Part shown: piece after piece, positions 1,920-54,577 of the stretch
Numbering within the stretch: position 1 is the stretch's first letter
Layout: every line of letters starts with the position of its first letter
UHGV virus genome: UHGV-0320443
Direction: 5' to 3' (one strand)
DNA length: 55,576 nt
From: a virus
Notes under the pieces: generated by a model
Databases searched by the model: none
Seen by the model: only the letters and a program-made list of their open reading frames with translations
Told to the model about the DNA's origin: nothing
Translations under genes and position numbers: made by a program

Positions 1920-3635
1920 TCATTTTGCAACCATCTTTTTAATTATTTCTTGAAGTGAACTCATTTCATCGATTAGATCTTGTCGCGTTGTTACGACTTC
2001 ATCGATGTATTCTTCAATCGAATTTTCTGTAATTAAGTCATAGATAATAGGATTGTTCTTTTGGCCTAGTCGATCGATACGTGCAATGGCTTGCTGGTTC
2101 TCACCAGGTACATATGATTTGTCGGCAAAGATTAAAGTATCAGCTACTTGTAAGTTTAATCCTTCCTTCATAGCCGCAATAGTACCTAACATGACTTTGT
2201 ATTTACCATTAGTGAAGTCCTGTACACGTCGTGTACGTTCATCTGCGGATCTCACTTTTCCTGTTATCATTGTATTTGTGATTTTATTTTTTGTTAACAG
2301 TTCTGCCAATAACTCAATGTACACACGACTTGAACTAAATATAACTACCTGTCTTTCAGCTTCTTCTACTATTTCAAGTATCCGATCTGTCTTGTTATTA
2401 GTAGCTATATTTGATCCTACGAGTGATGGATGCAATAGTAACTGTCTGAGTCGAGTTTCTTGTGTCATTACATTAGGCGAGACTACAAAGTTATTTTCTT
2501 CTACCTCAACAATTAGCTCCTCTCTAAATTTATCATAAAGCTTTCTTTCAGCCGAGCTAAGTTGTATTGGTATTTTCTGATAAATAACATCAGGTAGTTC
2601 AGTAAGAACATCACGTTTGTATCTTTGTATGACATAACTGTTCATCATATATCTATAGGCCTCTTTATTACGAGGTGCTATGATAGTTAAGGCATTGCTA
2701 TTTTTATTTTTAGCTTTGGCCATATAGTTTTCTTCTGTTTCATTGAATCGTTCAACAAAGCTCCAATAAGAACCAAAACGATTTTTGTCCATCAATTGCA
2801 ATAGACGAAATACCTCATTATGATTCTTATTAATCCACGTACCTGTCATGAGCACTAAGCTATTCTTTTTAAGTAACTCAATACCTCTAGATAATTGAGT
2901 TTTCTTATTTTTCAATACGTGAGCTTCATCGACAAAAACAATATCCCACTTCTGTTTAAATAGCTCAGGTAGTTTGTCAAGTGCTTTAAATCGGTTAGTC
3001 ACTTTGTCTACTCCCATTTGAAGTAGTGAGTAACTCCCAATGTAGAATCTGCTATCTTCCTGCAAGTTTTTGCGCATCTTTTCTAGGCGTTTGTAACTGG
3101 AATCCACATTGATGATTGTTGCTCGAGGATCCTCACTCCAAGCTTCTATCTCATTTTTCCAGTTACCTAGAATAGACAAAGGCCCTATGACTAAGATCTT
3201 TTTAGCTTTGATTGCATCAGCATATCCAATAGCTTCGATTGTTTTACCTGTTCCTGGATCGTTACCTAAGATTACATTTTGCATATGCATTAAAAGATTG
3301 ATATCAACCCTCTGATATGGACGCAACTTATCGTTATAACTGAGTGGTGTAACATCGTCCTTGCGCGATTTGATCTCAGCTATTTCTTTGTTTTTCTTTG
3401 CTTCTTGAGTGAACCAGTCATTGACTTCTTGGTCGATAGAAACTTCAATATTATTTTTCTTAATATAGTTCATAAAGAAAGTCATGACAACATCGTCTTT
3501 TCTGAATCTGGCAATAGCAAATTTCTTAGCTACATTTATGCCTGGTATTGCTGAAGCTAGTTTTAATAATCTACCTTGTTTCCCACTAGTGTCAACTATT
3601 TTTACCTTTGACGCTTCTAAAGATATCTTGAGCAT
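1920..3635 (-). CDS. SNF2-family DNA helicase
   Basis: Has GNDPGTGKT (motif I), VFVDEAHVLKN (DEAH box) and C-terminal helicase motifs. Length 571 aa. Confidence 0.85.
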   Translation of the reverse strand: MLKISLEASKVKIVDTSGKQGRLLKLASAIPGINVAKKFAIARFRKDDVVMTFFMNYIKKNNIEVSIDQEVNDWFTQEAKKNKEIAEIKSRKDDVTPLSYNDKLRPYQRVDINLLMHMQNVILGNDPGTGKTIEAIGYADAIKAKKILVIGPLSILGNWKNEIEAWSEDPRATIINVDSSYKRLEKMRKNLQEDSRFYIGSYSLLQMGVDKVTNRFKALDKLPELFKQKWDIVFVDEAHVLKNKKTQLSRGIELLKKNSLVLMTGTWINKNHNEVFRLLQLMDKNRFGSYWSFVERFNETEENYMAKAKNKNSNALTIIAPRNKEAYRYMMNSYVIQRYKRDVLTELPDVIYQKIPIQLSSAERKLYDKFREELIVEVEENNFVVSPNVMTQETRLRQLLLHPSLVGSNIATNNKTDRILEIVEEAERQVVIFSSSRVYIELLAELLTKNKITNTMITGKVRSADERTRRVQDFTNGKYKVMLGTIAAMKEGLNLQVADTLIFADKSYVPGENQQAIARIDRLGQKNNPIIYDLITENSIEEYIDEVVTTRQDLIDEMSSLQEIIKKMVAK

Positions 3636-4068
3636 AGCCTAACTCCTTTCCATCTCCAACAGTGTAATAGACTAGACCATGCCTGATAGCATCATAAGCA
3701 TGCCTTGAGGACACTTGTTTTTCTTTGCCAATGAAAGTATCGATATATTTATTAGTAAACATATCTTTCTGCGATGGTAATTGTTCGATGAACCTAATGC
3801 TATTTCGTCTGCACAAGTATTTGATCACGCCGATCACTTCTACTTCAGGAAATGTATCCCAAGACTTGTGTTGAGCTTTCCATGCATACAAAGCAAATTT
3901 TTCAATTATAACTAAATCAATATGAGCAGTATTCCGATGGAGCCATAAGCTCAACATATGCAAACCAGGATCCTCGAGATAAGAGAACTCACCACTATCC
4001 CGCAGTTGACCATCTTCGAATAACGCATAGCCTGTCATGTGACCTGGATCGAATGTTACGATTCTCAT
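3592..4068 (-). CDS. RuvC-like Holliday-junction resolvase
   Basis: MRIVTFDPGHMTGYALF resembles the RuvC N-terminal motif. Start re-set to the internal ATG preceded by AGGAGG; the track ORF extends to 4140. Confidence 0.5.
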   Translation of the reverse strand: MRIVTFDPGHMTGYALFEDGQLRDSGEFSYLEDPGLHMLSLWLHRNTAHIDLVIIEKFALYAWKAQHKSWDTFPEVEVIGVIKYLCRRNSIRFIEQLPSQKDMFTNKYIDTFIGKEKQVSSRHAYDAIRHGLVYYTVGDGKELGYAQDIFRSVKGKNS

Positions 4069-4140
4069 TAGTACTAACCTCCTATAAGTAAAAAATAAGC
4101 CTCCCATTACTGAGAGGCAAATTTTTAATTCAATGATCAA

Positions 4141-4647
4141 TTATTCAGCTGATTCTGCTTCAGCTTGTTTTGCAGCAGCTTTGGCAGCTTTTTCTGCTTC
4201 TTTTTGAGCTTTTGCTTCTTCACGTTCTTGTTTTTTACGAGCGCGTTCAGCTTCTTTTTCAGCTTTTTTAGCTTCACGTTCAGCACGTAAGCGTTCTTTT
4301 TCAGCTTCTTTTTCTGCTTTAGCTTTTTCGCGTTCCAAACGTTTAGCTTCTTTTTCTTCAGCTTCTTTTGCTTTTTTAGCTTCTAATTCAGGACGAACAC
4401 GTTCGTCATAAATTTCTTGAAACACTTTGCGAGCGCGATTAGCTGTTTGACGGTAGCCAGGTCCAACTTCTTCAGATACAACTTCACCGTTGTGAGTACC
4501 AATGATTTTGTAATCAGCTACTGCTTTTGTAACTGCATCAGTGTTTTCAGTTGCTTCTTGTAAAACAACTTCTGACTTAGTAACTTGTGCTACGACTTTA
4601 ACGCCATCTTTTTCGCGAGTGTAAATAACTTCAACTGTAGGTTCCAT
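4141..4647 (-). CDS. hypothetical protein with a Lys/Glu-rich coiled-coil C-terminus
   Basis: The last ~90 aa are KEAEK/ERLRAEREAKK repeats after a 75-aa N-domain. A promoter and RBS lie upstream. Confidence 0.55.
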   Translation of the reverse strand: MEPTVEVIYTREKDGVKVVAQVTKSEVVLQEATENTDAVTKAVADYKIIGTHNGEVVSEEVGPGYRQTANRARKVFQEIYDERVRPELEAKKAKEAEEKEAKRLEREKAKAEKEAEKERLRAEREAKKAEKEAERARKKQEREEAKAQKEAEKAAKAAAKQAEAESAE

Positions 4648-7415: not shown

Positions 7416-10400
7416 CTAAAAGAATGCAATGTCTTCTCCAACATAAGTTATACTAATATGGAAAATCTTGCCTGCTGATTGTTCGCCAGCATATCCGTTG
7501 ATTCCTGGATCAACCATTGTTGAGTTAGTTAGACGTCCATCAGTGTAAACATCACAGGTATATATTGTTCTACCACTAGATCGCATAATGATACCATTTC
7601 TGTTATACTTAGGTCGATAACCTTCAGGAATATTTGCCATGTGTTCCTGACCATTGGAAGGTGTGAATGTTGCAGTGTTTCTAATGGTTCCCGCTAAAGT
7701 AACAGTATCGCCATCACGAACAACTTTAGCATGCTGCCAACTAGACGTATCAGTATTGTAATCAGCCCATCCTGTAAGATAGGAAAGATTTGCTTCTGGT
7801 AAAGAAAGTCGTATAACTTTCCAAGGGCCCCAAGTACTGACACCGCTGATATTTTTACGTGTTCTCATAATACAGTTATTATCCATATCTGTATAAGTTT
7901 GAATAGCACCTACACTGCTAGGGTGAGAAATTACTTCTAAATAACCAAAGTTAGATAAATATTTAGGACCATTAGCTATTCCACTCATATACCATCTGCC
8001 GGGTTGATCAAATGAATCCCAGTTGACGGTCCCAGTTAATGGAGTAGGTTCTACGTTAGTAGCCACTTGAGCACCATTCACAGTAGGACGAGTAGTAAAG
8101 TTTTTAAGTCCTCCAACCGTTTGATTATTAGTACTGTCAATATCCTCTGACCAGGCTGACCAAATTCCATTGTGACTTTGTCGAGTATACGTCTTCATTG
8201 TACCACCACGCAGGGTTGCTCGTTGAAGAACATAATTATCAGCCCTTGCGATTGTTTCAAGGTAGTAGTAGACACCACTACCGCTGGTAGGTAGGTTTGA
8301 GGTTGCTGTAGCTTCTAGTTGGATTGTTTGGCTAGTGGTTATCTTATTTGCATCTGATGTAGTACCTAGTACTTGATCAATGTAAGGAGAGCTAAGTAAT
8401 TTCCAAGGTGACCAAGTACCATTAAATAATTGACGTTCATAAGTGTTTTGATATATACTACTAATGCGTGTAGCACGTTGATATACATAATTACCACTCG
8501 AGCCATACCTGACAACATCTGTATACCAACTTGTACTCGCTGCTCCATCAGGACTGTTTGTAGCACTAGTATTTACAATTGTTGCTGTTTCTTTAAGTGT
8601 GTTGAAATCAACTGCCATGGTGTCTACTCTTCCGTCGGACAATAGTGTAGGTATTTTGCGCCATTCACTCCAGACAGTATTAATACAAGCTCTTTGATAA
8701 GTCAAGCTGGGATCATTTGCACTCGTAATATTTTGTAGTACGTATGCTCCACCATATCGTTGAATTTTACCATAAATAGTTCCCACACCAGCAGGCACAT
8801 TTATTGGATTGATATAAACAAATTCACCACTAATTTTTTCGTTATTTAAATCTGCTCCGGTTTTACTTGCTTGATTACCATCCATCATAGCAGTTAAAAC
8901 TCTTTGCCAAGGAAGCCAGTTACTATTAATACGTTGACGTACATAAGTATAATCAGCATTACCTAGATTTAAACCCGTACGAATAGTGAGAGTTTGTTTT
9001 ACGTTAGTAAAATTGTCAAGAGGCTCATTAGTCAAATAACAAAAAGTAGTAGACGTTATATCTGGAGGAATAGTTCCTGTCATATTTCTTACTTTGTAAT
9101 TACCTTGAGCAACAAAGGTATCAATATTTAATCCCTCATAGCCTTGATATAAAGCACTATTTAAACTTTTGAAAATGTTCAATTCCATAATGTCTATACC
9201 TTGACCAGGCTCTAACCAAATAGAGAAAGCGTTACTTGCTTGCGTTTGAACAGTACCAGTATAATATCTCCAAGAATAAGAAGGATTCAATACCATGTTG
9301 TTACTCGAGCCAAAACCTATTTCAATAGGTTTAGCTACTGAAGCAAGACGTATTTTAACTTTGACATCAAACGGTTGAAATAAATCATTATCATTTATTC
9401 CCATATCTGCCATAAGCCAATAAATACGTAATCGCTCAGTGGTACTAGGATTTTTTAAACTCAAGTAACCACCGCTGATATAAGACATTTCTATTGTCGC
9501 TCCATTAAATGGTTCAGGAGTAGCAATAAAAGTTCCTGTCAGCTTAGGATCTGGGAAGACATTTTTGTGATAAAAAGGCTCATTATACTTAGTTAAGACA
9601 TCATTAGGACTTACTTGATGGCCAGTAAAAATAGTACCTTCTTGAACCATGATATCCTCAAAACGTACTAGATCAGTGACTCCTGCTGTGTCTCGTCTGG
9701 AGTAACTTAAAATTTTATACTGAGCTTCAGCAAAATTGGCTGGAGTAGTAAAAGTAGTTTCCCTTGTAATAGTGTCTCCAACTTTCAGATCTTTAAAGTC
9801 GTCTATAACAGAAGCTTCTCCGATCCAGATAGTAGGGTAGAAAGTGTTGTTTACATTGGAATACAAATTCAGCCCACCATGAGCCTTACTAGGACTGTAT
9901 AAGGCTCCACCATCTAAAGAAAGTAATCTTACAGTATACTTTGCATGGTAAGTAGTGTTGGGTTTAAACATTTTTGACGTAGCTTCTACGTTAAAAAGTT
10001 CATATCCCCAACCCCTAATTTCTACGGCATTGCCAGGAACTCTTCGACGAACCAGAGATTCAGGAGTTGTTATTAGTGATAAATCAAAGACATTTCGAGT
10101 ATTAATCTTAGCTGCATTGATTGCTGCAATTAATGTATCTAGATCAATTCTAGCTGTATTAATTTTGTTTTGCAATTCTTGTAGCTGAGTATTAATGTTT
10201 AATTTAAAAGCATCAATGTCATCTAAAGTATCTTGCATAATTAGACGAATCTGTTCCCGCAGTTGCTCAAATTCATCTACATAAAAATCAGACAAGTTTT
10301 CAATGTTAGCATCAATTAAGGATTGCTGCATTTCGAATCGGAAATATCCGAAGTCATGTGTTTTGATATTGTCAGCATTCATAGCTACAACACCAGCAAT

Positions 10401-28847: not shown

Positions 28848-28914
28848 CTCTCTTTATTCTTCTACTCTATTATACCCTACAATGCAGATAGTTGGTAGTA
28901 TTATTTGTGTGTAT

Positions 28915-29065
28915 TCGGGAGACCTCCGAAGGACCCAATGGGAGAAGAGGGGGTAAATTGTATATTTTTGGTGCAAAGACCTGCGCCCTCGCCGGCGTAA
29001 GTGCCCCGCACAAGTTTTTCAGGGGGGGTCGAACTTTGGCTTGAGGCAGCCCCCACTCAGCAGAC
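28915..29065. other. GC-rich non-coding patch (candidate cos/packaging or other cis element)
   Basis: Local GC is far above the window's background. Contains the GCCGGC palindrome and a G7/C5 inverted run. The two track ORFs here lack any RBS. Confidence 0.35.
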
Positions 29066-29089
29066 CAACTCATCCAAACTTTATTTTCA

Positions 29090-29257
29090 GGCTCACCTAA
29101 CTTTTAGTTTCAACTCAACCAAACAATTAATTCAAGTCAGCCCTAGCTTGTGTGTGTGGCGAGCGTGTGTGGTATGTTCGGCCCACCTAACTCTACTATC
29201 CATCTACACTAACAATCTATTATAGTCTACCAGACAATATAGTTAGGCTCACCTAAC
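29090..29257. repeat. three dispersed copies of GGC(T/C)CACCTAAC
   Basis: Copies at 29090-29101, 29170-29181 and 29246-29257, spaced about 80 and 76 bp. Confidence 0.55.
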
Positions 29258-29538
29258 ATTAGCTAGAGTTGATTGAGTCAATCATACTTGACAGTCTAGT
29301 TAGATTAATAATGACAAACGATTTAAATGGATCCACAATGCAAAACGATTTAGAATGTGCATTGCGAATGCATTGGTACTTACTTACCTAGACTGTCTAG
29401 ACTTATTAAGACTATCAATACTTACTTACTTATCCAACCTAGCTACACTCTATACTTATATACTATCATAGTCTATCTATAACTTACCAGGGACAAAAGG
29501 CCCAGCTAAACTTTCCAGGGAAGAAAGAAACATTTTGC

Positions 29539-29573
29539 GGGACATTACTGGCAAGCCGTAGTATAATAAATAT
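29539..29573 (+). promoter_or_regulatory. promoter P1 of the plus-strand island
   Basis: GGGACA-17-TATAAT (-10 at 29562-29567). Shares a 24-nt element GGCAAGNNGTAGTATAATWAATAT with P2. Confidence 0.45.
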
Positions 29574-29631
29574 AGAGATAAGAGTTAGTAAGTAAGTTCC
29601 AAGCCAAGTTAAAAACTTTTAAACAAAGTTC

Positions 29632-29666
29632 GTGCCAAGGCAGGCAAGGTGTAGTATAATTAATAT
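29632..29666 (+). promoter_or_regulatory. promoter P2 of the plus-strand island
   Basis: GTGCCA-17-TATAAT (-10 at 29655-29660). The RBS AGAGGAGAG and the ATG at 29692 follow. Confidence 0.45.
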
Positions 29667-29691
29667 ATAATAAAGAAGAGGAGAGATTCAC

Positions 29692-29898
29692 ATGACAAGA
29701 TCAAGCAAGCAAAAATATTTATTCGTAAGTTTAACAATCAAAAGCTTGTCGGAGGAAATTGACAATTTATATGAAGCTTACTATAACTGGGACATTGATT
29801 ACGATCGTGATCAAATTGCAAAAGTTGTTGAGGAAAAAGAGTTGAAGTTGGAAGAATTAATTGCAGAGCGCAAAGCAATCTTGAGAGGAGAATTATAA
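29692..29898 (+). CDS. hypothetical protein (68 aa)
   Basis: Good RBS. First gene after P1/P2. Confidence 0.5.
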   Translation: MTRSSKQKYLFVSLTIKSLSEEIDNLYEAYYNWDIDYDRDQIAKVVEEKELKLEELIAERKAILRGEL

Positions 29899-36214: not shown

Positions 36215-36416
36215 TCCTTCCTTTATCTTATATATTTATTATATATTAGACTTGACTGCATTGACAGGGCCACGACGTATATATGCAAAAATAAAAGGTT
36301 ACGATTTTCTTACGATGATTTTTAGTACCTAATAAATATATGAAAAGATAATGGGTATTCTCTCATAATCATGCAGAAGAAAGCGATCGATTTTTAGATC
36401 CATCTATAACTCTCGG

Positions 36417-36835
36417 TTAATTTAATTTAAGTTAATAAAACATGCTTTTCTTAACCAGTAGTTCGAACTTTCGGTTAAGAAAAGCATTAAAAAGTAAATG
36501 AAATTAATCGTGTCAATCCTTCTACATAGTGTCAAAAATTGTTTTTATATAATTTATTTATTTATTATTATTTTTTAGTCCTCCCCTAATATATATTATA
36601 TTATACAGCAAAATCAAGCAGTGGGCAATACGTCCAATTGATTTTTGAAGTGAGTTACTAATCCTCCACGTTTGCAAAAAGGACGGCAGACAATCGTAAA
36701 GGGAGGGGCGTCTCGCTGGTCTCATACTACAAGGGCTCTTGGTTTAATAATATTTAATAAAGCAATAAAAAAGCAACCAAAAGTTCGAACTTTCAGTTAC
36801 TTTTCCATATGATTATTAACTTAAATTAAATTAAA
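36417..36835. repeat. pair of about 20-bp AT-rich inverted repeats (TTAATTTAATTTAAGTTAA / TTAACTTAAATTAAATTAA) bounding a 400-bp non-coding segment
   Basis: Arms at 36417-36436 and 36815-36835. The same arms recur at 54267-54280 and 54442-54459. Confidence 0.55.
36442..36487. promoter_or_regulatory. perfect 15-bp-stem hairpin with a palindromic loop (AGTTCGAACT); a second AAAGTTCGAACTTT palindrome lies at 36779-36792
   Basis: ATGCTTTTCTTAACC / GGTTAAGAAAAGCAT flanking the loop agtagttcgaactttc. Confidence 0.5.
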
Positions 36836-36883
36836 TAGATATATAGGGAGTGACCTGTTTCTGCGTGTCTCTTCTTCCGATAT

Positions 36884-39471: not shown

Positions 39472-40464
39472 TTATAAACCTAGCCCTTTCATTTCTTCTA
39501 AAAGTTCTTTCATGACAGGATCACTGTCAGCAACTTTTTCAAACAATGCCATCTTATTAGCTTCTTCATAACGAGCTTGTGCTTTAGCAAACAATTCTTG
39601 CTTCTTAGCAATATTGATCAACAGCTTTTCATTGAAAGCTTGTTGCTCTTCATAAGAGTCGATGCCTACAATGAATTTGGTACCTAATTTTCGATCTTCT
39701 AACTGCTTACTCGCTACCAAACCAATTTCGTAAGTTCTATAAGAATCTACACTAGGTACTACAGCAAACAGCGTCTTTCCAGATTCTAACAAGGCCTTAA
39801 CTTCTGGCTCCATATTGGTAGGTACTACATACTCATATAGTTTTGATCCTGATGATTTTGAAAATTTTACATTGATTGATTTCATGTTTGTTCCTCCTAA
39901 GATATTTTTTATAATATGATCTGGTACTTTAACGCCGTTTGCAGTCAGTTGTTCAACTGCGGATGTCACTTCACTGTCTGTAGGACACTCTTTCTTAATG
40001 AAAGGTGTATCTGGTAGCACTTCATAGCCCAACTCCTTCTTGAGTAGAAATCGATGATAAATATTTTCGTCCAGATAATTATTGACATAGGTGCGACTAA
40101 TATAGGTATAAGGAGTGTTACGCTGCAATATCCTTTCTATCCTTGATCCGAAAACATGATCTAGCTCTCCATAATAGTGTAACACAGCTCCAGCTATCTC
40201 TAAAAGAGCAGTAACTGGTCCTGTATATAAAAACCTTGTTTCTTGATACTTATTAAAACCAGCATCTTCGACCATGTTAGCTAAGCGCTTTCTTTCCTTC
40301 TTTGTAATGTTACTACTAATTGATCTCCACATATACTTATTCAAAAGATCATTGTAATACTTAGCTAGAGGTAACACCTTTGCAGTGAATAGATCATTTA
40401 CAAAGAGGCTAAATGTCGGACTCTCTAGCATCCGATCAGGTGTAGTTTTTTCTTTAGTCATCAC
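39472..40464 (-). CDS. hypothetical protein (330 aa)
   Basis: ORF only. Confidence 0.5.
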   Translation of the reverse strand: MMTKEKTTPDRMLESPTFSLFVNDLFTAKVLPLAKYYNDLLNKYMWRSISSNITKKERKRLANMVEDAGFNKYQETRFLYTGPVTALLEIAGAVLHYYGELDHVFGSRIERILQRNTPYTYISRTYVNNYLDENIYHRFLLKKELGYEVLPDTPFIKKECPTDSEVTSAVEQLTANGVKVPDHIIKNILGGTNMKSINVKFSKSSGSKLYEYVVPTNMEPEVKALLESGKTLFAVVPSVDSYRTYEIGLVASKQLEDRKLGTKFIVGIDSYEEQQAFNEKLLINIAKKQELFAKAQARYEEANKMALFEKVADSDPVMKELLEEMKGLGL

Positions 40465-49214: not shown

Positions 49215-49954
49215 TAGAATAATCCTCCTTGATAAGCATAAGATTGACAACCTGCCCAATCAATATAGTTTTCATATTTAACTGGATCTACAATATGATT
49301 GTATTTGAAAGCATTAACACGATCAATACATGTACCACAATGACCACATTGATCTTCATGCCCTTCGTAACAAGAACGAGTCAAGTGTAAAGGAGCGCCT
49401 AATTCTAATCCTAAAGTAACTACACCAGCTTTGTTTTTCATTAATAGAGGAGCATCAAGATTTACTTTATGTCCTGAGCCTGCAAAGATCGCACGATCCA
49501 TTGCTTTGTAAAATTCTGGAGTACAGTCCGGATAAGCTGAACCAGCTGCATCATCTGAATGAGCTCCATAAACAACTTTGCTAGCACCAATGCTATATGC
49601 ATATGCTGCGGCTTGACTTAACATTAAACCGTTTCGGAAAGGAACATATGAATCAACAGTACCTTCACCATTTTCTTCAATAATTTCTGCATAGCTCTTA
49701 TGAGATAATTCTCCATTGCCTTTAAGCAAAGTGCTATCACTCTTTGAAAACAGCTGCGGATCTACTGTTAGTACTACGTGCTCCACGCCATATTCTTTTG
49801 CTACGTTTTTTGCATTCTCGATCTCATTGTCATGTTTTTGACCATAAGAAAAAGACAGTGCGTGGACATTATCAGGTCCTACTTTCTTTACACTGTCTGC
49901 CAAACACACCGTGGAGTCCAAGCCACCACTTAATAATACTACTACTTTTGTCAT
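49214..49954 (-). CDS. queC: 7-cyano-7-deazaguanine synthase
   Basis: VVLLSGGLDSTVCLA PP-loop and C-terminal CGHCGTC zinc motif. Start re-set to MTKVVV (GAGGA RBS). Confidence 0.85.
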   Translation of the reverse strand: MTKVVVLLSGGLDSTVCLADSVKKVGPDNVHALSFSYGQKHDNEIENAKNVAKEYGVEHVVLTVDPQLFSKSDSTLLKGNGELSHKSYAEIIEENGEGTVDSYVPFRNGLMLSQAAAYAYSIGASKVVYGAHSDDAAGSAYPDCTPEFYKAMDRAIFAGSGHKVNLDAPLLMKNKAGVVTLGLELGAPLHLTRSCYEGHEDQCGHCGTCIDRVNAFKYNHIVDPVKYENYIDWAGCQSYAYQGGLF

Positions 49955-50581
49955 ATTCCTTTTCCTCATTTCATTTTTTATTTTATCCTGGTGGTTTGTT
50001 TCACCAGTCTAACTGGACCGGAGAGGAATCGCACCTCTCAATTAACTAAAGTAATATATGAGCGCTCACTACATTACCGTCGATCCAAAAAGAAAAACTA
50101 AATAGAAACCGTTACCTGAGAGAGATGTTGGGAGCTCATACCGCGAATTTGTGTTTTGTGATGAGTATGAGACTTATTTTTTAGAAAAAACTCAGGAGAG
50201 CTCCCTTGAGCGGATTTATTACACGGGACTAAAGCTCTACCGTGATCAGTCTTTCCTGACAGCCAATAACTACTGCACACTTGTACTCAATGTGATGCGG
50301 TGAGCAAGTTATACGAGCTTGCTCCATTGATGCAAATGCGACATACAACTTTATTTATTATTCGTACAACAAATGACTTTTCCCCAACGCGCTTGAGTTG
50401 ATTAATCATTTATTTTGTAGAGAGTTTTCCCAGTAACGATTTCATATTTAGTTTTCAATGTTGCGCACTATGATTGAAAAAGTTGAATTTCATGTATTTG
50501 ATTGAGACAGAAAGGCAAAGTTAGTCAACCAGAGTGTTACGCGAACTTAGTTATTTGATGGCCATCATTTAACTATACTTA
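49955..50581 (-). ncRNA. long structured 5' leader / candidate regulatory RNA of the que operon
   Basis: About 600 nt between a good promoter and queC with no credible ORF, GC above background and several stable hairpins (for example 50021-50039, 49988-50007, 50130-50205). Confidence 0.3.
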
Positions 50582-50610
50582 ATTATAACATATAATCATC
50601 ATGACCTCAA
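50582..50610 (-). promoter_or_regulatory. promoter TTGAGG-17-TATAAT directly after the primase stop
   Basis: On the minus strand, the -35 is at 50610-50605 and the -10 at 50587-50582. Confidence 0.45.
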
Positions 50611-50625
50611 CGGGCGAAATTCGTG

Positions 50626-53595
50626 TTATTTCATTTTAATGATTTGTAGAATCTCGTCCTCACGCTTCGACCGGAACTCCCGCAGTTGTTCATTCCATTT
50701 ATGAGTGACTCGATACACACTAGAGTTACCACCAGTATGAACGTAAATGATTTGCAAGTCAATCATGATCTTAATAGTTGCCTTAGCTTCTTCTGTATCA
50801 ATATTAAGTGTTTCTTCCAATGTCTTAGAAGTAAAGCTACCTTTGATAGAATCAACAATATTGACAACTTCTGAATTGATATGGAAGAAACGGAAAATTT
50901 TCTTCTGATCGTCTCCAGTAACAATATGACGACGTTGTTCGTCTTTAGCCATTGCTCGATAGCCTAATGTAGGATTGCTATAAATCTTTTCTAAGAAATT
51001 AGCTACGAATTCTACATGCTCCGATTTGACAATGACTTTTTCATATGTCTCATCAGTACTAAACAATCTTGCAGCACAGGCTACAGCAAGTCGACTTAAT
51101 TTAACTTTCATTGAGTTACGTTCTACAATAGATAAAGATGACCCATCATATTCGCGACCCATATTGGAAGCTTCTTTTAATAATCGACTATAAGCTTCAG
51201 CAGTAAATTCTACCTTATCATTTTCAGGTGTCAAGTAACCTTTAGCATTTCTTGACCAAGCCCACATAATTAATCGTTGACATAAGTCCTTAGTATATTT
51301 AACTGGTCCTTTAGGTAAATGAGATGTGTCTCTATTAATGATAGATTCATCGACCTCATCACGTCCAACTCCCATAGCAAAATCAAAACGAGCGATATCC
51401 TCAGACCGTCCTACTAAATCGATAATTGCTTTAGCACCGTATGGATAGTCCTTCATGTGTTTAGCACCATTACCTACACGAGGGTTAGAAATCCAAATTG
51501 ATCTTGTCCTAGCATATGCCTGACCAATCTTAGCTTTATTGATTTCTACGATACCACGAGAACGCATAGAAGACATAGCACCAAAGTCATCTTTAGATAA
51601 TCCAGATGCTTCATCTAAAATTAATAACTTACGATCGTTCTGTGGAAACTTACCCCAGGTGATTGTCCATTGATCATTACCCATTTGTTGTACAGTTCCT
51701 GTTAAACCTGTCAAACGAGTGTTCTCAACTTCAATCATATCTCCAGCTTGATAATATTCAGCCATGTACTCAGCTGTCTCAGATTTACCAGTACGTGGAT
51801 CTCCAATAGTTAACAATTCTAACCAGCCACGAGCCTGCAATTTATTATCTAAATGGAAACGCAATACAGAATGATATACCAAATCATAAGCAATGACTAA
51901 TTCTTTCCTGTCCCAGATACGAGTGTAAAGTTCTAAGTCGCTAGCAATTTCATACATCTTGTCTTCCACAGTTTGATCATCTGCGGGTTGAAAGATCTTG
52001 AGCTCTTCGATTTCTTCGGGTGTAGGTTTAAAGGCATCCATCTCTTCACGTATCGGTGTAGCCTTGGTAACTAGGTAAGCTACGTAACCCATGTCAGGAT
52101 CTGATGTACGCAATGCTTGCAATTTGTACACTCGGTTAGAAGTAACTGACTCCCTTGGCTTGTCATAAACATGGTAAGCTCTTTGTACATCAACTGAATC
52201 ATCACTAATGGTTCTGGAGAATTTTTCTACACTAGGACCAATATGCAATACTTCAATGTTGTAAGACTCAATTTCTTCAAACTTGTACATGTTATTATTC
52301 TTAGGTACACCTAAAGCTTCTTTCAATAACATTTCTCGTTTGTCATCGCTGACACCGGCAAATTTCATTGTGTCTCGAGTGATCTCAAAATTAATATCAA
52401 AGCCTTCTTTTAATTGCTTTTCAGTTAGACTACGTAGTACACATTGTCTACCAGGTACTAATTCAGGGTCATAATAATCAACAGACACTCGTAGTACTTT
52501 TGGTGCAGTAAAGATATTAGAACTTCGCCCAATAATCATAGCTTCGATCTCAATAGCTTTGTTATTGAATGCTGGATTGTAAGTTGCCTCACTAAGGCTT
52601 GTAGGAATAAATTCTGATTCTGCTAATGTACCTTTGTTGAGTTCTTTTAAATCTTCTTCAACAGTAGGGACAAATAATTTAGACTTAGTAAGTACTTCAT
52701 CATAGAAGTCATCTTTAGTTTTTCCTAGCTCAACAATAAAGTCAGTAAAATCTATATGTGGTTGAGGGTACTCACAAATCCGAACTTCGGCAGCTACCTC
52801 ACGTAAGTTTAATGCCTCACGTTCAGCACCTGATCTACCAGCATCGTCACCGTCGTAACAAATAAATACTTTCTTATCTCTAAAGTAGTGATCCATACAA
52901 CCACCCTTAGGCCATTGTCCAGCACCACCAGTTTGTGTGATTGAAGGAATGCCTAATTGTCTAGCTAATGCTGCATCGGTCTCACCTTCGAATATAACGA
53001 CCCAACCGACATTAATGAAGTCATGATCTAAAGGCCACAGATAAGATTTCGTATATGCATTCTTAGTATTAATAAATTTTGCTTTCTTAGCACCCATGCG
53101 ATACTTTCTTATATTAATAAGTTTTCCATCTAATGAATAAACAGGTATTGTATAACGCTGTGTGTCCGGATCATATCCTATTTGTCTTTGCTTGATTGTG
53201 TTTAAAGTAAATCCGCGTTTATTCATAAATTTTTCTAGGAATTTAGGGTGTTGAAGTAATGTTTGATGATATTCTTCAGCTATCGATTCATCCATAGGAA
53301 ACGCGAGTTTTCCTTTGCGTTCGAATTGCTGTTGTAGCTTAATTGATTCACCAAGAGGGAAATCATACCATTCTACTAACCAAGCAGCGATATCACCTCC
53401 GCCACCATTTTGTCCTGCATCACAGGCTTTACAGTTCCATAATCCGGTAGATAAATTTATATGCATTGAAGGGGTAGTGTCTCCGTGAAAAGGACAACAA
53501 ACTGCTACTTCTTCGTCTCCATCCATCGGCATCGGAAGTCCTGGTATATAGTCCTGATAAAATCGTCTATACTTGAACTTTGTTTCTTCTGCCAT
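50626..53595 (-). CDS. bifunctional DNA primase (zinc-finger + TOPRIM) / helicase
   Basis: CCPFHGDTTPS...CKAC (CHC2 zinc finger), VVIFEGETDA...FICYDGDDAGRSG (TOPRIM) and the C-terminal P-loop GDPRTGKS. 989 aa. Confidence 0.8.
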   Translation of the reverse strand: MAEETKFKYRRFYQDYIPGLPMPMDGDEEVAVCCPFHGDTTPSMHINLSTGLWNCKACDAGQNGGGGDIAAWLVEWYDFPLGESIKLQQQFERKGKLAFPMDESIAEEYHQTLLQHPKFLEKFMNKRGFTLNTIKQRQIGYDPDTQRYTIPVYSLDGKLINIRKYRMGAKKAKFINTKNAYTKSYLWPLDHDFINVGWVVIFEGETDAALARQLGIPSITQTGGAGQWPKGGCMDHYFRDKKVFICYDGDDAGRSGAEREALNLREVAAEVRICEYPQPHIDFTDFIVELGKTKDDFYDEVLTKSKLFVPTVEEDLKELNKGTLAESEFIPTSLSEATYNPAFNNKAIEIEAMIIGRSSNIFTAPKVLRVSVDYYDPELVPGRQCVLRSLTEKQLKEGFDINFEITRDTMKFAGVSDDKREMLLKEALGVPKNNNMYKFEEIESYNIEVLHIGPSVEKFSRTISDDSVDVQRAYHVYDKPRESVTSNRVYKLQALRTSDPDMGYVAYLVTKATPIREEMDAFKPTPEEIEELKIFQPADDQTVEDKMYEIASDLELYTRIWDRKELVIAYDLVYHSVLRFHLDNKLQARGWLELLTIGDPRTGKSETAEYMAEYYQAGDMIEVENTRLTGLTGTVQQMGNDQWTITWGKFPQNDRKLLILDEASGLSKDDFGAMSSMRSRGIVEINKAKIGQAYARTRSIWISNPRVGNGAKHMKDYPYGAKAIIDLVGRSEDIARFDFAMGVGRDEVDESIINRDTSHLPKGPVKYTKDLCQRLIMWAWSRNAKGYLTPENDKVEFTAEAYSRLLKEASNMGREYDGSSLSIVERNSMKVKLSRLAVACAARLFSTDETYEKVIVKSEHVEFVANFLEKIYSNPTLGYRAMAKDEQRRHIVTGDDQKKIFRFFHINSEVVNIVDSIKGSFTSKTLEETLNIDTEEAKATIKIMIDLQIIYVHTGGNSSVYRVTHKWNEQLREFRSKREDEILQIIKMK

Positions 53596-54188: not shown

Positions 54189-54540
54189 GAAAAATCTCCT
54201 TTATTAAAAAATAATTAGAAAAAGAAAGAAGAGACAAATTAATATCTCTTCTATATTATACACCTATTTAATTTAATTTACAATAATTTTTTTGCGATTA
54301 ATTAAATATAATTAAATATAATTATATATTTTTTCTCTTCATAGACTTTCCTATCTATAATTATATATCATTAAAATAGCAATAGCAACAAGTTTTTTCA
54401 TGACAACTATTTATGGGTGTTTAATTTTTTATATGGAAATCAACTTAAATTAAATTAACTAGAGTTGAGGAAAGAGATACAAAAAATATTCTTCTTCTTT
54501 TAAAAAACATACTATCATTATAATGTTTAAAGAAAGCAAA

Positions 54541-54570
54541 TAAAAAACCCCTATCTTTACGATAGAGGTT
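54541..54570 (-). terminator. rho-independent terminator after the 169-aa gene
   Basis: CCTCTATC-gtaaa-GATAGGGG stem followed by UUUUUU on the minus strand. Confidence 0.5.
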
Positions 54571-54577
54571 CACTTTT

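What the first reader, a model, noticed from the sequence alone, without database searches (positions are those of the whole stretch)
49955..50625. Promoter followed by a roughly 600-nt ORF-free structured leader upstream of queC: candidate riboswitch or regulatory RNA
A well-formed TTGAGG-17-TATAAT promoter sits immediately after the primase stop, yet the first que gene starts 600 nt later. No credible ORF intervenes; the single 60-aa track ORF has no RBS. The segment is GC-enriched relative to the genome. It has mutually exclusive pairings: GGGAGCUC pairs with GAGCUCCC at 50130-50205 but overlaps an alternative CUCAUAC/GUAUGAG stem. It also has the hairpins GAGAGG-ugcgauu-CCUCUC and CUGGUG-aaacaaac-CACCAG followed by an A-rich tract just before the RBS. 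preQ1 riboswitches control que operons in Firmicutes, so a phage copy, or a different ligand- or protein-responsive leader, is plausible.
Basis: partly seen in the sequence, partly recalled or inferred. Interest (0 to 1): 0.65.

Follow-up and report, generated by a model that had tools for sequence, protein, structure and literature searches.

The report
Structured phage RNA with tRNA-like module
Between a phage's primase gene and its queuosine-precursor (que) genes, a conserved promoter drives a ~600-nt non-coding stretch that is under strong selection and folds into a large closed RNA domain followed by a tRNA-shaped module; it matches no known riboswitch or RNA family and looks like a new phage RNA of unknown role.

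Summary
A strong extended -10 promoter (50582-50610, minus strand) sits 15 nt after the primase stop. It is followed by 671 nt without any conserved ORF before queC. The GC-enrichment claim is wrong (0.373 vs 0.378 genome-wide).

The preQ1-riboswitch reading is not supported. Rfam 15 gives no hit here, in the 12 near-identical phage contigs I recovered, or in the short que leaders of distant relatives.

What is there is a modular sense-strand RNA:
- two 5' hairpins;
- a 265-365-nt domain closed by a 24-28-bp long-range helix that carries compensatory changes;
- an invariant 62-nt core;
- a D-armless tRNA-like module (canonical T-arm plus acceptor stem);
- a conserved hairpin before the RBS.

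The tRNA-like module exists in three swapped versions, and all of them pair.

Within one allelic type the region is more conserved (~98.5%) than the flanking genes (~96-97%; third codon positions ~90%). Between types only this element is replaced (71% identity).

My best model is a co-transcribed, processed non-coding RNA: RNase III cuts at the closing helix and RNase P/Z cut at the tRNA-like module, releasing a hairpin-capped que mRNA. This model is inferred, not shown. The element is a new RNA family, closest in kind to the large phage RNAs ROOL and GOLLD.

The parts
50582..50610 (-). Sigma-A-type promoter TTGAGG-17-TATAAT with extended -10 (TGT-TATAAT). The predicted transcription start is at about 50574-50576.
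   Evidence: unique in the window. Identical or nearly so in all 13 clade members. A promoter at the same position occurs in distant relatives.
50548..50575 (-). H1: invariant 5'-terminal hairpin UAGUUAAAUGAUGGCCAUCAAAUAACUA. It contains the 12-bp perfect DNA palindrome TGATGGCCATCA. It could be a 5' stabiliser of the transcript or a protein operator overlapping +1.
   Evidence: The palindrome is unique in the window.
50460..50546 (-). H2: long irregular hairpin (~87 nt). It is present at the same position and size in both allelic types although the sequence is diverged. Its apex (50498-50516, GCCUUUCUGUCUCAAUCAA) is a conserved pyrimidine-rich island complementary to the queC RBS.
   Evidence: (z -3.3 and -3.6).
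50428..50456 (-). P1 5' strand of the long-range closing helix (pairs with 50093-50121).
   Evidence: (I1). 23-28 bp, with 4 pairs changed on both sides, 4-7 changed on one side, and no broken pairs in the RNAalifold register.
50306..50419 (-). Variable inner hairpins of the closed domain. Type A carries an ~82-nt hairpin-containing insertion that type B lacks.
   Evidence: The structure here is not consistent between variants.
50209..50270 (-). Invariant 62-nt core GUUAUUGGCUGUCAGGAAAGACUGAUCACGGUAGAGCUUUAGUCCCGUGUAAUAAAUCCGCU. It has two hairpins: RUCAG-GAAAGA-CUGAY (50245-50260) and CACGG-UAGAGCUUUAGUC-CCGUG (50222-50244).
   Evidence: Nearly identical between types that are otherwise 40-60% identical locally. 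One pair runs through G-U, A-U and G-C.
50130..50205 (-). Post-core long hairpin (GGGAGCUC...GAGCUCCC in type A). A different hairpin occupies the same position in type B, and the base of the hairpin shows 3 double changes.
50093..50121 (-). P1 3' strand of the closing helix, followed by a U-rich tract.
50013..50088 (-). D-armless tRNA-like module. It consists of an acceptor-like stem (50081-50088 with 50013-50020), a variable hairpin (50050-50078) and a T-arm GAGAGG-UGCGAUU-CCUCUC (50021-50039) stacked on the acceptor 3' strand. No CCA is encoded.
   Evidence: Three exchanged versions (A, B, C) all fold alike; 18/18 acceptor cells pair and 4 of 6 positions change on both sides. Not called as a tRNA.
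49988..50007 (-). Invariant terminal hairpin CUGGUG-AAACAAAC-CACCAG followed by an A-rich tract. It is not a terminator. It is a candidate 5' protective hairpin of the processed que mRNA.
49952..49967 (-). queC ribosome-binding site GAGGAAAAGG (49958-49967) and the probable true start ATG (49952-49954).
   Evidence: sequence. Gene calls of 246 aa in related contigs.

Best explanation
The 671-nt gap encodes a functional, multi-domain structured RNA on the gene (minus) strand, transcribed from the conserved promoter together with the que operon.

Anatomy, 5' to 3':
- an invariant 5'-terminal hairpin (H1);
- a long hairpin (H2);
- a 265-365-nt domain closed by a 24-28-bp long-range helix (P1) around an invariant 62-nt two-hairpin core;
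- a D-armless tRNA-like module whose acceptor and T stems form a ~12-14-bp coaxial stack;
- a conserved hairpin just upstream of the queC RBS.

Shown: the region is non-coding, is under purifying selection, has RNA-type (G-U-dependent) conserved helices, and belongs to no Rfam family.

Inferred: the layout mimics an rRNA operon. A stable RNA is bracketed by a processing stem and followed by a spacer tRNA. I therefore propose that host RNase III cuts P1, and that RNase P and RNase Z cut either side of the tRNA-like module. This would release a stable non-coding RNA carrying the invariant core as a binding platform for a protein or RNA partner, a small tRNA-like RNA, and a que mRNA that begins with a protective 5' hairpin.

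The trans function of the released RNA is unknown.
For: 1. Non-coding. No ORF is conserved, frames shift among 98-99%-identical variants, and none has an SD sequence. There are 1-nt indels inside the conserved core.

2. Selection. Within type A the element is 98.3-98.5% identical. The flanking primase and que genes are 95-97% identical, and only 89-92% at third codon positions. Between types A and B only this element is replaced (71% overall; 38-61% in 200-nt windows, against 87-100% for 11 kb of flanks).

3. Structure.
- The named helices pair in 96.8% of cells, against 37-51% when partners are slid.
- Five pairs change on both sides, against 0-1 in the slid controls.
- The covariation score is 0.114 against 0.018-0.047, and 0/500 shuffles reach it.
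- RNAalifold independently recovers H1, P1, both core hairpins, the T-arm and the terminal hairpin, with 9 double-changed pairs.
- All 6 within-type substitutions at paired sites in the first 7 variants keep a canonical pair, and each involves a G-U allele.

4. Strand. 10 of ~72 pairs in the supported helices are G-U. Sense z is -4.7 against antisense -1.9. The T-loop sequence GGUUCGAWUCC reads correctly only on the sense strand.

5. tRNA-like module. Three different versions fold identically (z -3.0 to -3.8). Acceptor stems covary. There is a weak tRNA-clan hit in type B. U is present at -1 in all three. The acceptor plus T stack is 12 bp in types B and C, the length RNase P measures (PMC4919913).

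6. Promoter. It is unique in the window and positionally conserved. No terminator lies between it and queC.

7. Precedent of kind. ROOL and GOLLD are large phage RNAs near or containing tRNAs (PMC5737381, PMC12286853).
Against: - There are no expression or processing data; every cleavage step is inferred from shape.
- Phylogenetic depth is shallow: 13 contigs and 8 distinct sequences, but effectively 2-3 lineages. The covariation statistics are therefore suggestive rather than conclusive, and the structure line was derived from the window itself.
- The fold between P1 and the core is not consistent between variants.
- In type B the sense strand does not fold better than the antisense (z -3.3 vs -4.0).
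- In 300-nt windows the region ranks only 7th of 228.
- One later variant (L182) carries a pair-breaking change in H2.
- Type A's T-loop has G at position 55, and its stack is 13-14 bp.
- The element was found in only one narrow phage clade. Relatives with the same operon do without it (80-230-nt leaders).
Confidence: 0.5

Rival explanations
1. A purely cis-acting 5' leader (riboswitch-like, or protein- or tRNA-responsive) controls translation or stability of the que operon. One version has the H2 apex or the T-arm 3' strand masking the queC RBS, with a ligand, a protein or processing relieving the block.
For: - It lies in the 5' UTR with no terminator before queC.
- A conserved pyrimidine island in the H2 apex (50498-50516) and the T-arm strand UUCCUCUC are both complementary to the RBS. 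RNAalifold picks the H2-RBS pairing in all 8 sequences, with a duplex energy of -9.9 to -11.1 kcal/mol.
- The terminal hairpin and A-rich tract are invariant.
- Bacterial que operons in Firmicutes are commonly riboswitch-controlled (general knowledge).
Against: - No Rfam riboswitch, T-box or leader family matches, even at E<=10 in a 160-nt search.
- The RBS lies in an open A-rich stretch in the MFE folds.
- The anti-RBS duplexes are not outliers (z about -2; 1-3% of genome windows pair as well) and show no covariation.
- At 600 nt, with a 28-bp closing helix and a tRNA mimic, the element is far beyond known riboswitch architectures.
- The peripheral helices and the tRNA-like module are swapped between otherwise near-identical phages.
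- Relatives run the same operon from 80-230-nt leaders with no riboswitch hit.
Confidence: 0.22
2. A DNA-level element acts as double- or single-stranded DNA: a replication origin, a primosome-loading or single-strand initiation site next to the primase-helicase gene, or an operator or packaging site.
For: - It is immediately downstream of the primase-MCM helicase gene.
- It has long inverted repeats.
- H1 contains a perfect 12-bp palindrome at +1 that could be an operator.
- In type B both strands fold about equally well.
Against: - The helices rely on G-U wobbles (10 of ~72 pairs; every within-type paired-site polymorphism has a G-U allele). These would be A-C mismatches on the other strand or in a cruciform.
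- A canonical T-loop and acceptor stack make sense only as RNA.
- There are no iterons or direct repeats, no AT-rich unwinding tract, and ordinary GC content.
- Better origin-like candidates exist elsewhere: the AT-rich 54189-54577 (GC 0.19-0.23) and the palindrome cluster at 36417-36834.
Confidence: 0.08
3. A non-functional remnant: a decaying tRNA gene or array, a pseudogene, a scar of a mobile element with terminal inverted repeats, or an attP-type copy of a host tRNA 3' end.
For: - tRNA-like pieces lack a D-arm or a decodable anticodon.
- The closed domain is bounded by imperfect inverted repeats, as in a MITE.
- The element is absent from more distant relatives.
- Segments appear to have been exchanged by recombination.
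Against: - It is more conserved than the flanking coding DNA within a type, which is the opposite of decay.
- Three different tRNA-like versions all keep the 5' acceptor strand complementary, which an attP fragment would not need.
- The 25-nt T-arm plus acceptor strand of types B and C occurs in none of 185,579 representative genomes, and the core occurs in none.
- No integrase was found among 28 scanned proteins of the replication and early module.
- There are no other copies in the genome.
Confidence: 0.06
4. A missed small protein gene lies within the gap.
For: Several 39-62-aa ORFs exist on the sense strand, and one gene caller annotated a 62-aa ORF in L182.
Against: - None has an SD sequence.
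- Lengths and frames change among 98-99%-identical variants (60->48->66 aa; 40->17->62 aa).
- None is shared with type B (best local score 27).
- There is no Pfam hit.
- The conserved core carries two 1-nt indels between types.
Confidence: 0.02

Closest known systems
ROOL (RF03087) and GOLLD (RF01998) large ornate RNAs of phages and prophages
   Same: These are large (~0.5-0.8 kb) multi-helix non-coding RNAs encoded by phages of Firmicutes and other hosts, with unknown function. They typically sit next to tRNAs, and GOLLD sometimes has tRNAs embedded in its linker (PMC5737381, PMC12286853). The present element is 0.5-0.6 kb, phage-encoded, and covalently linked to a tRNA-shaped module.
   Different: There is no covariance-model similarity at E<=10. 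The linked module is a D-armless mimic rather than a real tRNA. The element lies in the 5' UTR of a que operon. It has been seen so far in one narrow phage clade with two or three allelic cassettes. Nothing is known about oligomerisation.
rRNA-operon processing architecture (long-range RNase III processing stems bracketing a stable RNA, followed by spacer tRNAs cut by RNase P/Z); established knowledge
   Same: The order is the same: promoter, leader hairpins, then a structured RNA enclosed by a 24-28-bp helix formed from its flanks, then a tRNA-shaped unit, then downstream RNA.
   Different: The enclosed RNA is 265-365 nt and unrelated to rRNA. The tRNA unit is not decodable. The downstream RNA is an mRNA. 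Cleavage has not been tested.
tRNA-like processing signals: MALAT1/mascRNA, mitochondrial tRNA punctuation, RNase P-matured phage regulatory RNAs (P4 CI RNA, P1/P7 C4 RNA); cited from my own knowledge
   Same: An acceptor/T-arm mimic embedded in a longer transcript could recruit RNase P (and RNase Z) to define RNA ends. In P4 and P1 a phage leader transcript is matured in this way into a regulatory RNA.
   Different: Those RNAs are small (about 60-80 nt of mature RNA). Here the upstream partner is a large closed domain. There is no sequence relationship, and no experimental evidence here.
preQ1 riboswitches (preQ1-I RF00522, -II RF01054, -III RF02680)
   Same: The element sits upstream of queC in a Firmicute-type, low-GC phage. 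A short hairpin followed by an A-rich tail just before the RBS superficially recalls preQ1-I.
   Different: No model match. The hairpin loop AAACAAAC has no complement to the SD for the H-type pseudoknot. The element is 15-20 times larger than preQ1-I.
YrlA / bacterial Y RNA-like RNAs (RF02553)
   Same: Both have a modular design: a long stem formed by distal segments plus a tRNA-like domain with a canonical T-arm. Some YrlA RNAs are phage-encoded.
   Different: No model hit in the window or in type B. YrlA is ~100-200 nt with a D-arm mimic. No Ro60/Rsr gene was seen nearby.

Membership tests
preQ1 riboswitch (classes I, II, III) | Match to the Rfam covariance model (sequence plus pseudoknotted hairpin) | tested here: not met
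   There was no hit at gathering score over the whole window. There was none at E<=10 in 1 kb or in the 160 nt before the RBS.
preQ1 riboswitch (classes I, II, III) | Expression platform: SD sequestration in the pseudoknot, or a terminator | tested here: not met
   No terminator lies on the sense strand between the promoter and queC. The terminal hairpin loop AAACAAAC is not complementary to the SD, and the RBS is unpaired in the MFE folds.
preQ1 riboswitch (classes I, II, III) | Binds preQ1/preQ0 | not testable with these tools
   This needs in-line probing or ITC.
tRNA gene | Cloverleaf with a D-arm and a 7-nt anticodon loop (U33, decodable anticodon) | tested here: not met
   ARAGORN finds none in the window or L007 or at relaxed thresholds. 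In armless mode only type B is flagged, as 'mtRNA-???' with a 2-nt anticodon. The middle hairpins have 4-nt or AAUUAAA loops.
tRNA gene | T-arm with a UUCRANY T-loop stacked on a 7-bp acceptor stem (~12-bp stack) | tested here: met
   The T-arm is GAGAGG-U[U/G]C[G/A]A[U/A]U-CCUCUC and directly abuts the acceptor 3' strand. The stack is 12 bp in types B and C and 13-14 bp in type A.
tmRNA | tRNA-like domain formed by the 5' and 3' ends, plus a tag reading frame and pseudoknots | tested here: not met
   ARAGORN tmRNA search: none. The only Rfam tmRNA signal is a 6-bit fragment on the T-loop.
ROOL RNA | Match to RF03087 (six multistem junctions, three pseudoknots, conserved nucleotides) | tested here: not met
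   cmscan at E<=10 with permissive filters lists no ROOL hit for type A or type B.
ROOL RNA | About 580 nt, phage or prophage location, near tRNAs | tested here: met
   The transcribed non-coding RNA is 504-621 nt, lies in a phage genome, and is followed by a tRNA-like module. This is a resemblance of kind only.
GOLLD RNA | Match to RF01998 (conserved 3' half) | tested here: not met
   No hit at E<=10.
YrlA / Y RNA-like | Match to RF02553; Ro60-binding stem plus a tRNA-like domain with D-arm and T-arm mimics | tested here: not met
   No hit in the window or L007. There is no D-arm mimic in the module.
T-box leader | Match to the Rfam T-box model; specifier loop and T-box antiterminator | tested here: not met
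   No hit, and no terminator.
RNase P/RNase Z substrate (tRNA-like processing signal) | Acceptor/T-stem coaxial stack of about 12 bp with a T-loop; single-stranded 5' leader (U at -1) and 3' trailer | tested here: met
   U precedes the acceptor stem in all three types. The ruler concept is from PMC4919913.
RNase P/RNase Z substrate (tRNA-like processing signal) | Actual cleavage at the predicted sites | not testable with these tools
   This needs in vitro cleavage assays or end-mapping in infected cells.
Phage attP overlapping a tRNA 3' end | Identity to the 3' part of a host tRNA gene; integrase present | tested here: not met
   The 25-nt T-arm plus acceptor pattern occurs in 0 of 185,579 species genomes. 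No integrase was found in the scanned proteins; the structural genes were not scanned.

The most novel reading that the evidence does not exclude
This is the founding example of a new class of large phage-encoded structured RNA. An invariant core platform sits inside a processing-stem-closed domain and is coupled to an exchangeable tRNA-mimic cassette. After release the RNA would act in trans. It might be a decoy or sponge for a host tRNA-binding or tRNA-cleaving factor (an anti-defence role), or a self-assembling RNA particle in the manner of ROOL and GOLLD. The allelic cassettes would then reflect an arms race with the host.
Probability: 0.2. Interest if true: 0.85.

Novelty: new variant of a known kind. 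Interest (0 to 1): 0.6.

Why it matters
Few bacterial or phage non-coding RNAs exceed 400 nt. Those that do (ROOL, GOLLD, OLE, raiA) have turned out to be structurally remarkable and are still functionally unexplained.

This element would add an unrelated example with unusually clear handles for experiment:
- a defined strong promoter;
- a closing helix and a tRNA mimic that predict exact processing sites;
- an invariant 62-nt core to mutate;
- natural allelic cassettes (A, B, C) in otherwise near-isogenic phages, which amount to ready-made swap experiments.

It also corrects the natural assumption that a long structured leader before queC must be a preQ1 riboswitch. None of the phage que operons examined here carries one.

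Tried and rejected
- Known RNA families. All 8 Rfam searches (whole window, the region, the last 160 nt, type B, nine related loci, two short leaders) returned only chance-level hits (one search was for L181).
- Nucleotide homologues. There were none in GenBank phages for types A, B or C. None turned up in IMG/VR with four conserved exact segments, or in 185,579 genomes.
- Distant primase relatives. About 160 loci from IMG/VR and JGI metagenomes (30-53% identity) show no similarity. The apparent long gaps in some of them hold ordinary ORFs.
- QueC relatives. Identity jumps from 98% to 69% (Dp-1/MS1-like phages), and those have short leaders.
- Real tRNA or tmRNA: rejected.
- GC enrichment: rejected.
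- Fold z-score. The first z of -8.35 (20 shuffles) was inflated. It is -4.7 with 30 shuffles, and the region is unremarkable in 300-nt windows.
- Co-varying partner gene. None was found within about 5 kb.
- Anti-SD pairing of the H2 apex with the RBS. It is not above background.
- My T-arm regex scan of all loci was mis-tuned, because it misses the element's own 6+6-bp stems. I drew nothing from it.
- One promoter pattern was mis-specified and was redone.
Full report
LOCATION AND CONTEXT

Almost all genes of the window lie on the minus strand. The finding is the gap between a primase-MCM-type helicase fusion (50626-53595, 989 aa; Zn-ribbon, Toprim and MCM domains) and a 7-deazaguanine (preQ0) operon. 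That operon comprises queC (49214-49954/49969), queD, a Vut_1/YhhQ-like transporter, queE and folE.

The same order (HTH protein, primase, queC, queD, queE, folE, and later DNA polymerase A) is found in Bacillus phages BSTP5 and BSP7 (primase 51% identical) and Weizmannia phage Youna2 (37%). There the primase-queC gap is only about 80-170 nt. Metagenomic relatives at 53% identity have about 200-230 nt. The closest QueC proteins are those of Streptococcus phages MS1 and Dp-1 (69% and 61%), which have ~60-nt leaders. So about 500 nt here are extra.

CHECKING THE OBSERVATION

The promoter TTGAGG-17-TATAAT with a TG extension is real. It is the only match in 55.6 kb to a stringent extended -10 pattern (0.07 expected). 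A -35/17/-10 promoter sits directly after the primase stop in BSTP5, Youna2, L008 and L009 as well.

The gap is 671 nt to the probable queC start at 49954. The claimed GC enrichment is not there: 0.373 against 0.378 for the window, the 38th percentile. The named hairpins exist.

The sense strand folds better than dinucleotide shuffles (z = -4.7 with 30 shuffles; antisense -1.9). The background for 606-nt windows of this genome is -0.9 +/- 1.6. The first estimate of -8.35 came from too few shuffles, and in 300-nt windows the region is only 7th of 228.

KNOWN FAMILIES

Rfam 15 gives nothing at gathering thresholds. At E<=10 it gives only chance-level hits in the region, in the last 160 nt and in the second allelic type. 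There is no preQ1-I, -II or -III, T-box, ROOL, GOLLD, YrlA or tmRNA.

The que leaders of Dp-1, MS1, Youna2, BSTP5, L008, L009 and L015 also lack any hit. ARAGORN finds no tRNA or tmRNA in the window or in 45 related loci.

HOMOLOGUES

The element has no nucleotide match in 50,697 GenBank phages, IMG/VR or 185,579 bacterial and archaeal genomes. About 160 loci with distant primase relatives show no similarity.

The phage's own clade is present only in Logan and ENA assemblies. Through the 90%-identity primase cluster I recovered 12 further contigs, whose primases differ by at most 11 of 989 residues.

Their intergenic regions fall into allelic forms:
- Type A: 671 nt (the window and four variants).
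- Type B: 554-555 nt (three variants).
- Type A body with a third version (C) of the tRNA-like module: L178 and L182.

SELECTION

Within type A the element is 98.3-98.5% identical. The flanking primase and que genes are 95-97% identical, and 89-92% at third codon positions. The non-coding stretch is therefore more constrained than the neighbouring coding DNA.

Between types A and B the flanks remain 87-100% identical in 200-nt windows over 11 kb. The element drops to 38-61%, and 71% overall. The replacement is confined to the element, and no nearby gene co-varies with it.

Islands stay nearly invariant across types:
- the promoter;
- the first hairpin;
- a pyrimidine-rich H2 apex;
- the outer part of the closing helix;
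- a 62-nt core (50209-50270);
- the T-arm;
- the terminal hairpin plus RBS.

NOT PROTEIN-CODING

Sense-strand ORFs lack SD sequences. They change frame and length among 98-99%-identical variants (60->48->66 aa; 40->17->62 aa) and are not shared with type B. The conserved core carries two separate 1-nt indels between types. The 60-aa ORF has no Pfam hit.

STRUCTURE

Independent MFE folds of types A, B and A/C give the same module order:
- H1;
- H2 (~87 nt);
- a long-range helix P1 (28 bp in type A, 24 bp in type B) closing a domain of 365 or 265 nt;
- inner hairpins around the core;
- a long post-core hairpin;
- the tRNA-like module;
- the terminal hairpin.

On the eight-sequence alignment A3, the helices I named pair in 96.8% of cells, against 37-51% when partners are slid. 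Five pairs change on both sides (0-1 in the slid controls). The covariation score is 0.114 against 0.018-0.047, and no shuffle of 500 reaches it.

RNAalifold, run independently, recovers H1, P1, both core hairpins, the base of the post-core hairpin, the T-arm and the terminal hairpin. For P1 it gives 23 pairs, four changed on both sides, seven on one side and none broken. The base of the post-core hairpin has three double changes.

Within types, all six substitutions at paired sites in the first seven variants keep a canonical pair. One pair runs through G-U, A-U and G-C. A later variant (L182) has one disruptive change in H2.

Ten of about 72 pairs in the supported helices are G-U, and every within-type paired-site polymorphism includes a G-U allele. 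This points to RNA on the sense strand rather than a DNA cruciform or an antisense RNA.

Caveats: there are effectively only two or three lineages. The structure line came from the window. The fold between P1 and the core is not consistent across variants. Type B shows no strand asymmetry in folding energy.

THE tRNA-LIKE MODULE

In types B and C it reads GAGAGG-UUCGAUU-CCUCUC and GAGAGG-UUCGAAU-CCUCUC, which are canonical T-loops.

In all three types the T-stem abuts a 6-8-bp acceptor-like stem that encloses a variable hairpin. There is no D-arm and no encoded CCA (z -3.0 to -3.8).

Counted outward from the T-junction, the acceptor pairs are:
- Type A: G-C, C-G, U-G, A-U, G-C, G-C
- Type B: G-C, U-A, C-G, G-C, A-U, G-C
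- Type C: A-U, U-A, C-G, G-C, G-U, G-C

All 18 cells pair, five of six positions vary, and four change on both sides. The stack of acceptor plus T stems is 12 bp in types B and C and 13-14 bp in type A. A U precedes the stem in each.

cmscan gives a weak tRNA-clan alignment for type B (E = 0.23). ARAGORN's armless mode flags only type B, as an undecodable 'mtRNA-???'. These are therefore tRNA mimics, not decoding tRNAs.

The 25-nt T-arm plus acceptor strand of types B and C occurs in no representative genome. That finding, together with the complementary 5' strand, argues against an attP-type tRNA fragment.

L178 and L182 show that the module is exchanged as a unit, with breakpoints exactly at its borders.

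MECHANISM (INFERRED)

The layout parallels rRNA operons, where flanking sequences form RNase III processing stems around the stable RNA and spacer tRNAs are cut out by RNase P and RNase Z (established knowledge). Here the order is: promoter, 5'-terminal hairpin, a structured RNA bracketed by a 24-28-bp helix formed from its flanks, a tRNA-shaped unit, then the mRNA.

An acceptor/T stack of about 12 bp with a T-loop is what RNase P measures (PMC4919913). tRNA mimics define RNA ends in other systems: MALAT1/mascRNA, and the P4 CI and P1 C4 phage RNAs (from my own knowledge).

I therefore propose processing into three products:
- a stable RNA carrying the invariant core;
- a small tRNA-like RNA;
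- a que mRNA starting about 5 nt before the invariant CUGGUG...CACCAG hairpin, which would protect its 5' end. This hairpin has no U-tract and is not a terminator.

The function of the released RNA is not known. The invariant loops of the core suggest a binding platform. The allelic peripheral helices and the swappable tRNA mimic suggest either tolerance or diversifying pressure.

RIVAL EXPLANATIONS

- Purely cis-regulatory leader. This remains possible. The conserved H2 apex and the T-arm strand can pair with the RBS. The duplexes are weak, however (-9.9 to -11.1 kcal/mol) and not above background, and there is no terminator.
- DNA-level roles (origin or operator). G-U dependence, the absence of iterons and ordinary GC content disfavour these. 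Better origin-like candidates lie at 54189-54577 (GC 0.19-0.23) and 36417-36834. H1's perfect palindrome at +1 could still be an operator.
- Decay remnant, MITE or attP. The strong within-type conservation contradicts these readings.

COMPARISON AND NOVELTY

In kind the element is closest to ROOL and GOLLD, which are large phage or prophage RNAs of unknown function found near tRNA islands, with tRNAs sometimes embedded in GOLLD (PMC5737381, PMC12286853). It fails their covariance models, so it is not a member of either family.

It is a new RNA family with a distinctive combination of features: a processing-stem-closed domain, an invariant core, an exchangeable tRNA mimic, and a position in a que-operon 5' UTR. 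So far it is known from only one uncultured phage clade.

I rate it a new variant of a known kind, with interest 0.6. It is well supported as a functional structured RNA. Its function is unknown, its phylogenetic depth is limited, and the processing model is untested.

Noticed in passing
window 36417-36834 (within the ORF-poor stretch 36215-36883): A ~420-nt segment is bounded by a perfect 22-nt inverted repeat (TTAATTTAATTTAAGTTAATAA / TTATTAACTTAAATTAAATTAA). It contains two long palindromes (43- and 48-nt arms), each centred on GTTCGAAC. It gave the strongest fold z-score in my genome background (-8.0 on the + strand, 12 shuffles). It could be an origin, a MITE-like element or a bidirectional terminator cluster.
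   Followed up: partly
window 54189-54577: A very AT-rich non-coding stretch (GC 0.19-0.23) lies upstream of the HTH-protein and primase genes. It is a more origin-like region than the finding itself.
   Followed up: no
window 28848-29897: A 1050-nt gap without any ORF of 90 aa or more lies where gene orientation switches from minus to plus.
   Followed up: no
L181 (IMGVR_UViG_3300025282_000066) 3170-4450: An unrelated 45-kb viral contig has a ~1.2-kb ORF-poor region with three tRNA-like modules, none called by ARAGORN. The first is a T-arm plus acceptor plus CCA unit (3657-3749). The second is a miniature tmRNA-like tRNA domain with only 38 nt between its halves (3851-3935; Rfam tmRNA 39 bits, E 3e-13). 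The third is a weak YrlA-like hit (4002-4185).
   Followed up: partly
window 50498-50516: The pyrimidine-rich apex of hairpin H2 (GCCUUUCUGUCUCAAUCAA) is a conserved island between allelic types. It resembles the 16S rRNA anti-SD tail and is complementary to the queC RBS. RNAalifold pairs the two in all sequences, but the duplex energy is not above background.
   Followed up: yes
L008 4250-4290; L005 (Youna2) 9065-9105: Two phages whose primases are only distantly related to each other (53% and 37% identical to the window's) share a ~30-nt motif TAGTGACTATAAACCC[C/T]AACCAAAT just upstream of the queC RBS. It has no Rfam match. It may be a small conserved que-leader motif of its own.
   Followed up: partly
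window 49952-49969: The mechanical ORF for queC starts at the ATG at 49969, which lies inside the RBS. The real start is almost certainly the ATG at 49954 (MTKVV...), 9 nt after GAGG, as called in the related contigs (246 aa).
   Followed up: yes
L182 6250-6290 (equivalent to window ~50335-50345): One variant carries a 9-nt tandem duplication (TGTCGCATT) next to the conserved UCGCAUU segment inside the closed domain, and a G-to-A change that breaks a pair in H2.
   Followed up: partly
window 39472-40464 and other replication-module ORFs: Many proteins of the replication and nucleotide module have no Pfam match. No TGT/DpdA-like transglycosylase was recognised in the proteins scanned, even though a full preQ0 pathway is present. 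The DNA polymerase A carries an N-terminal UDG-superfamily domain.
   Followed up: no
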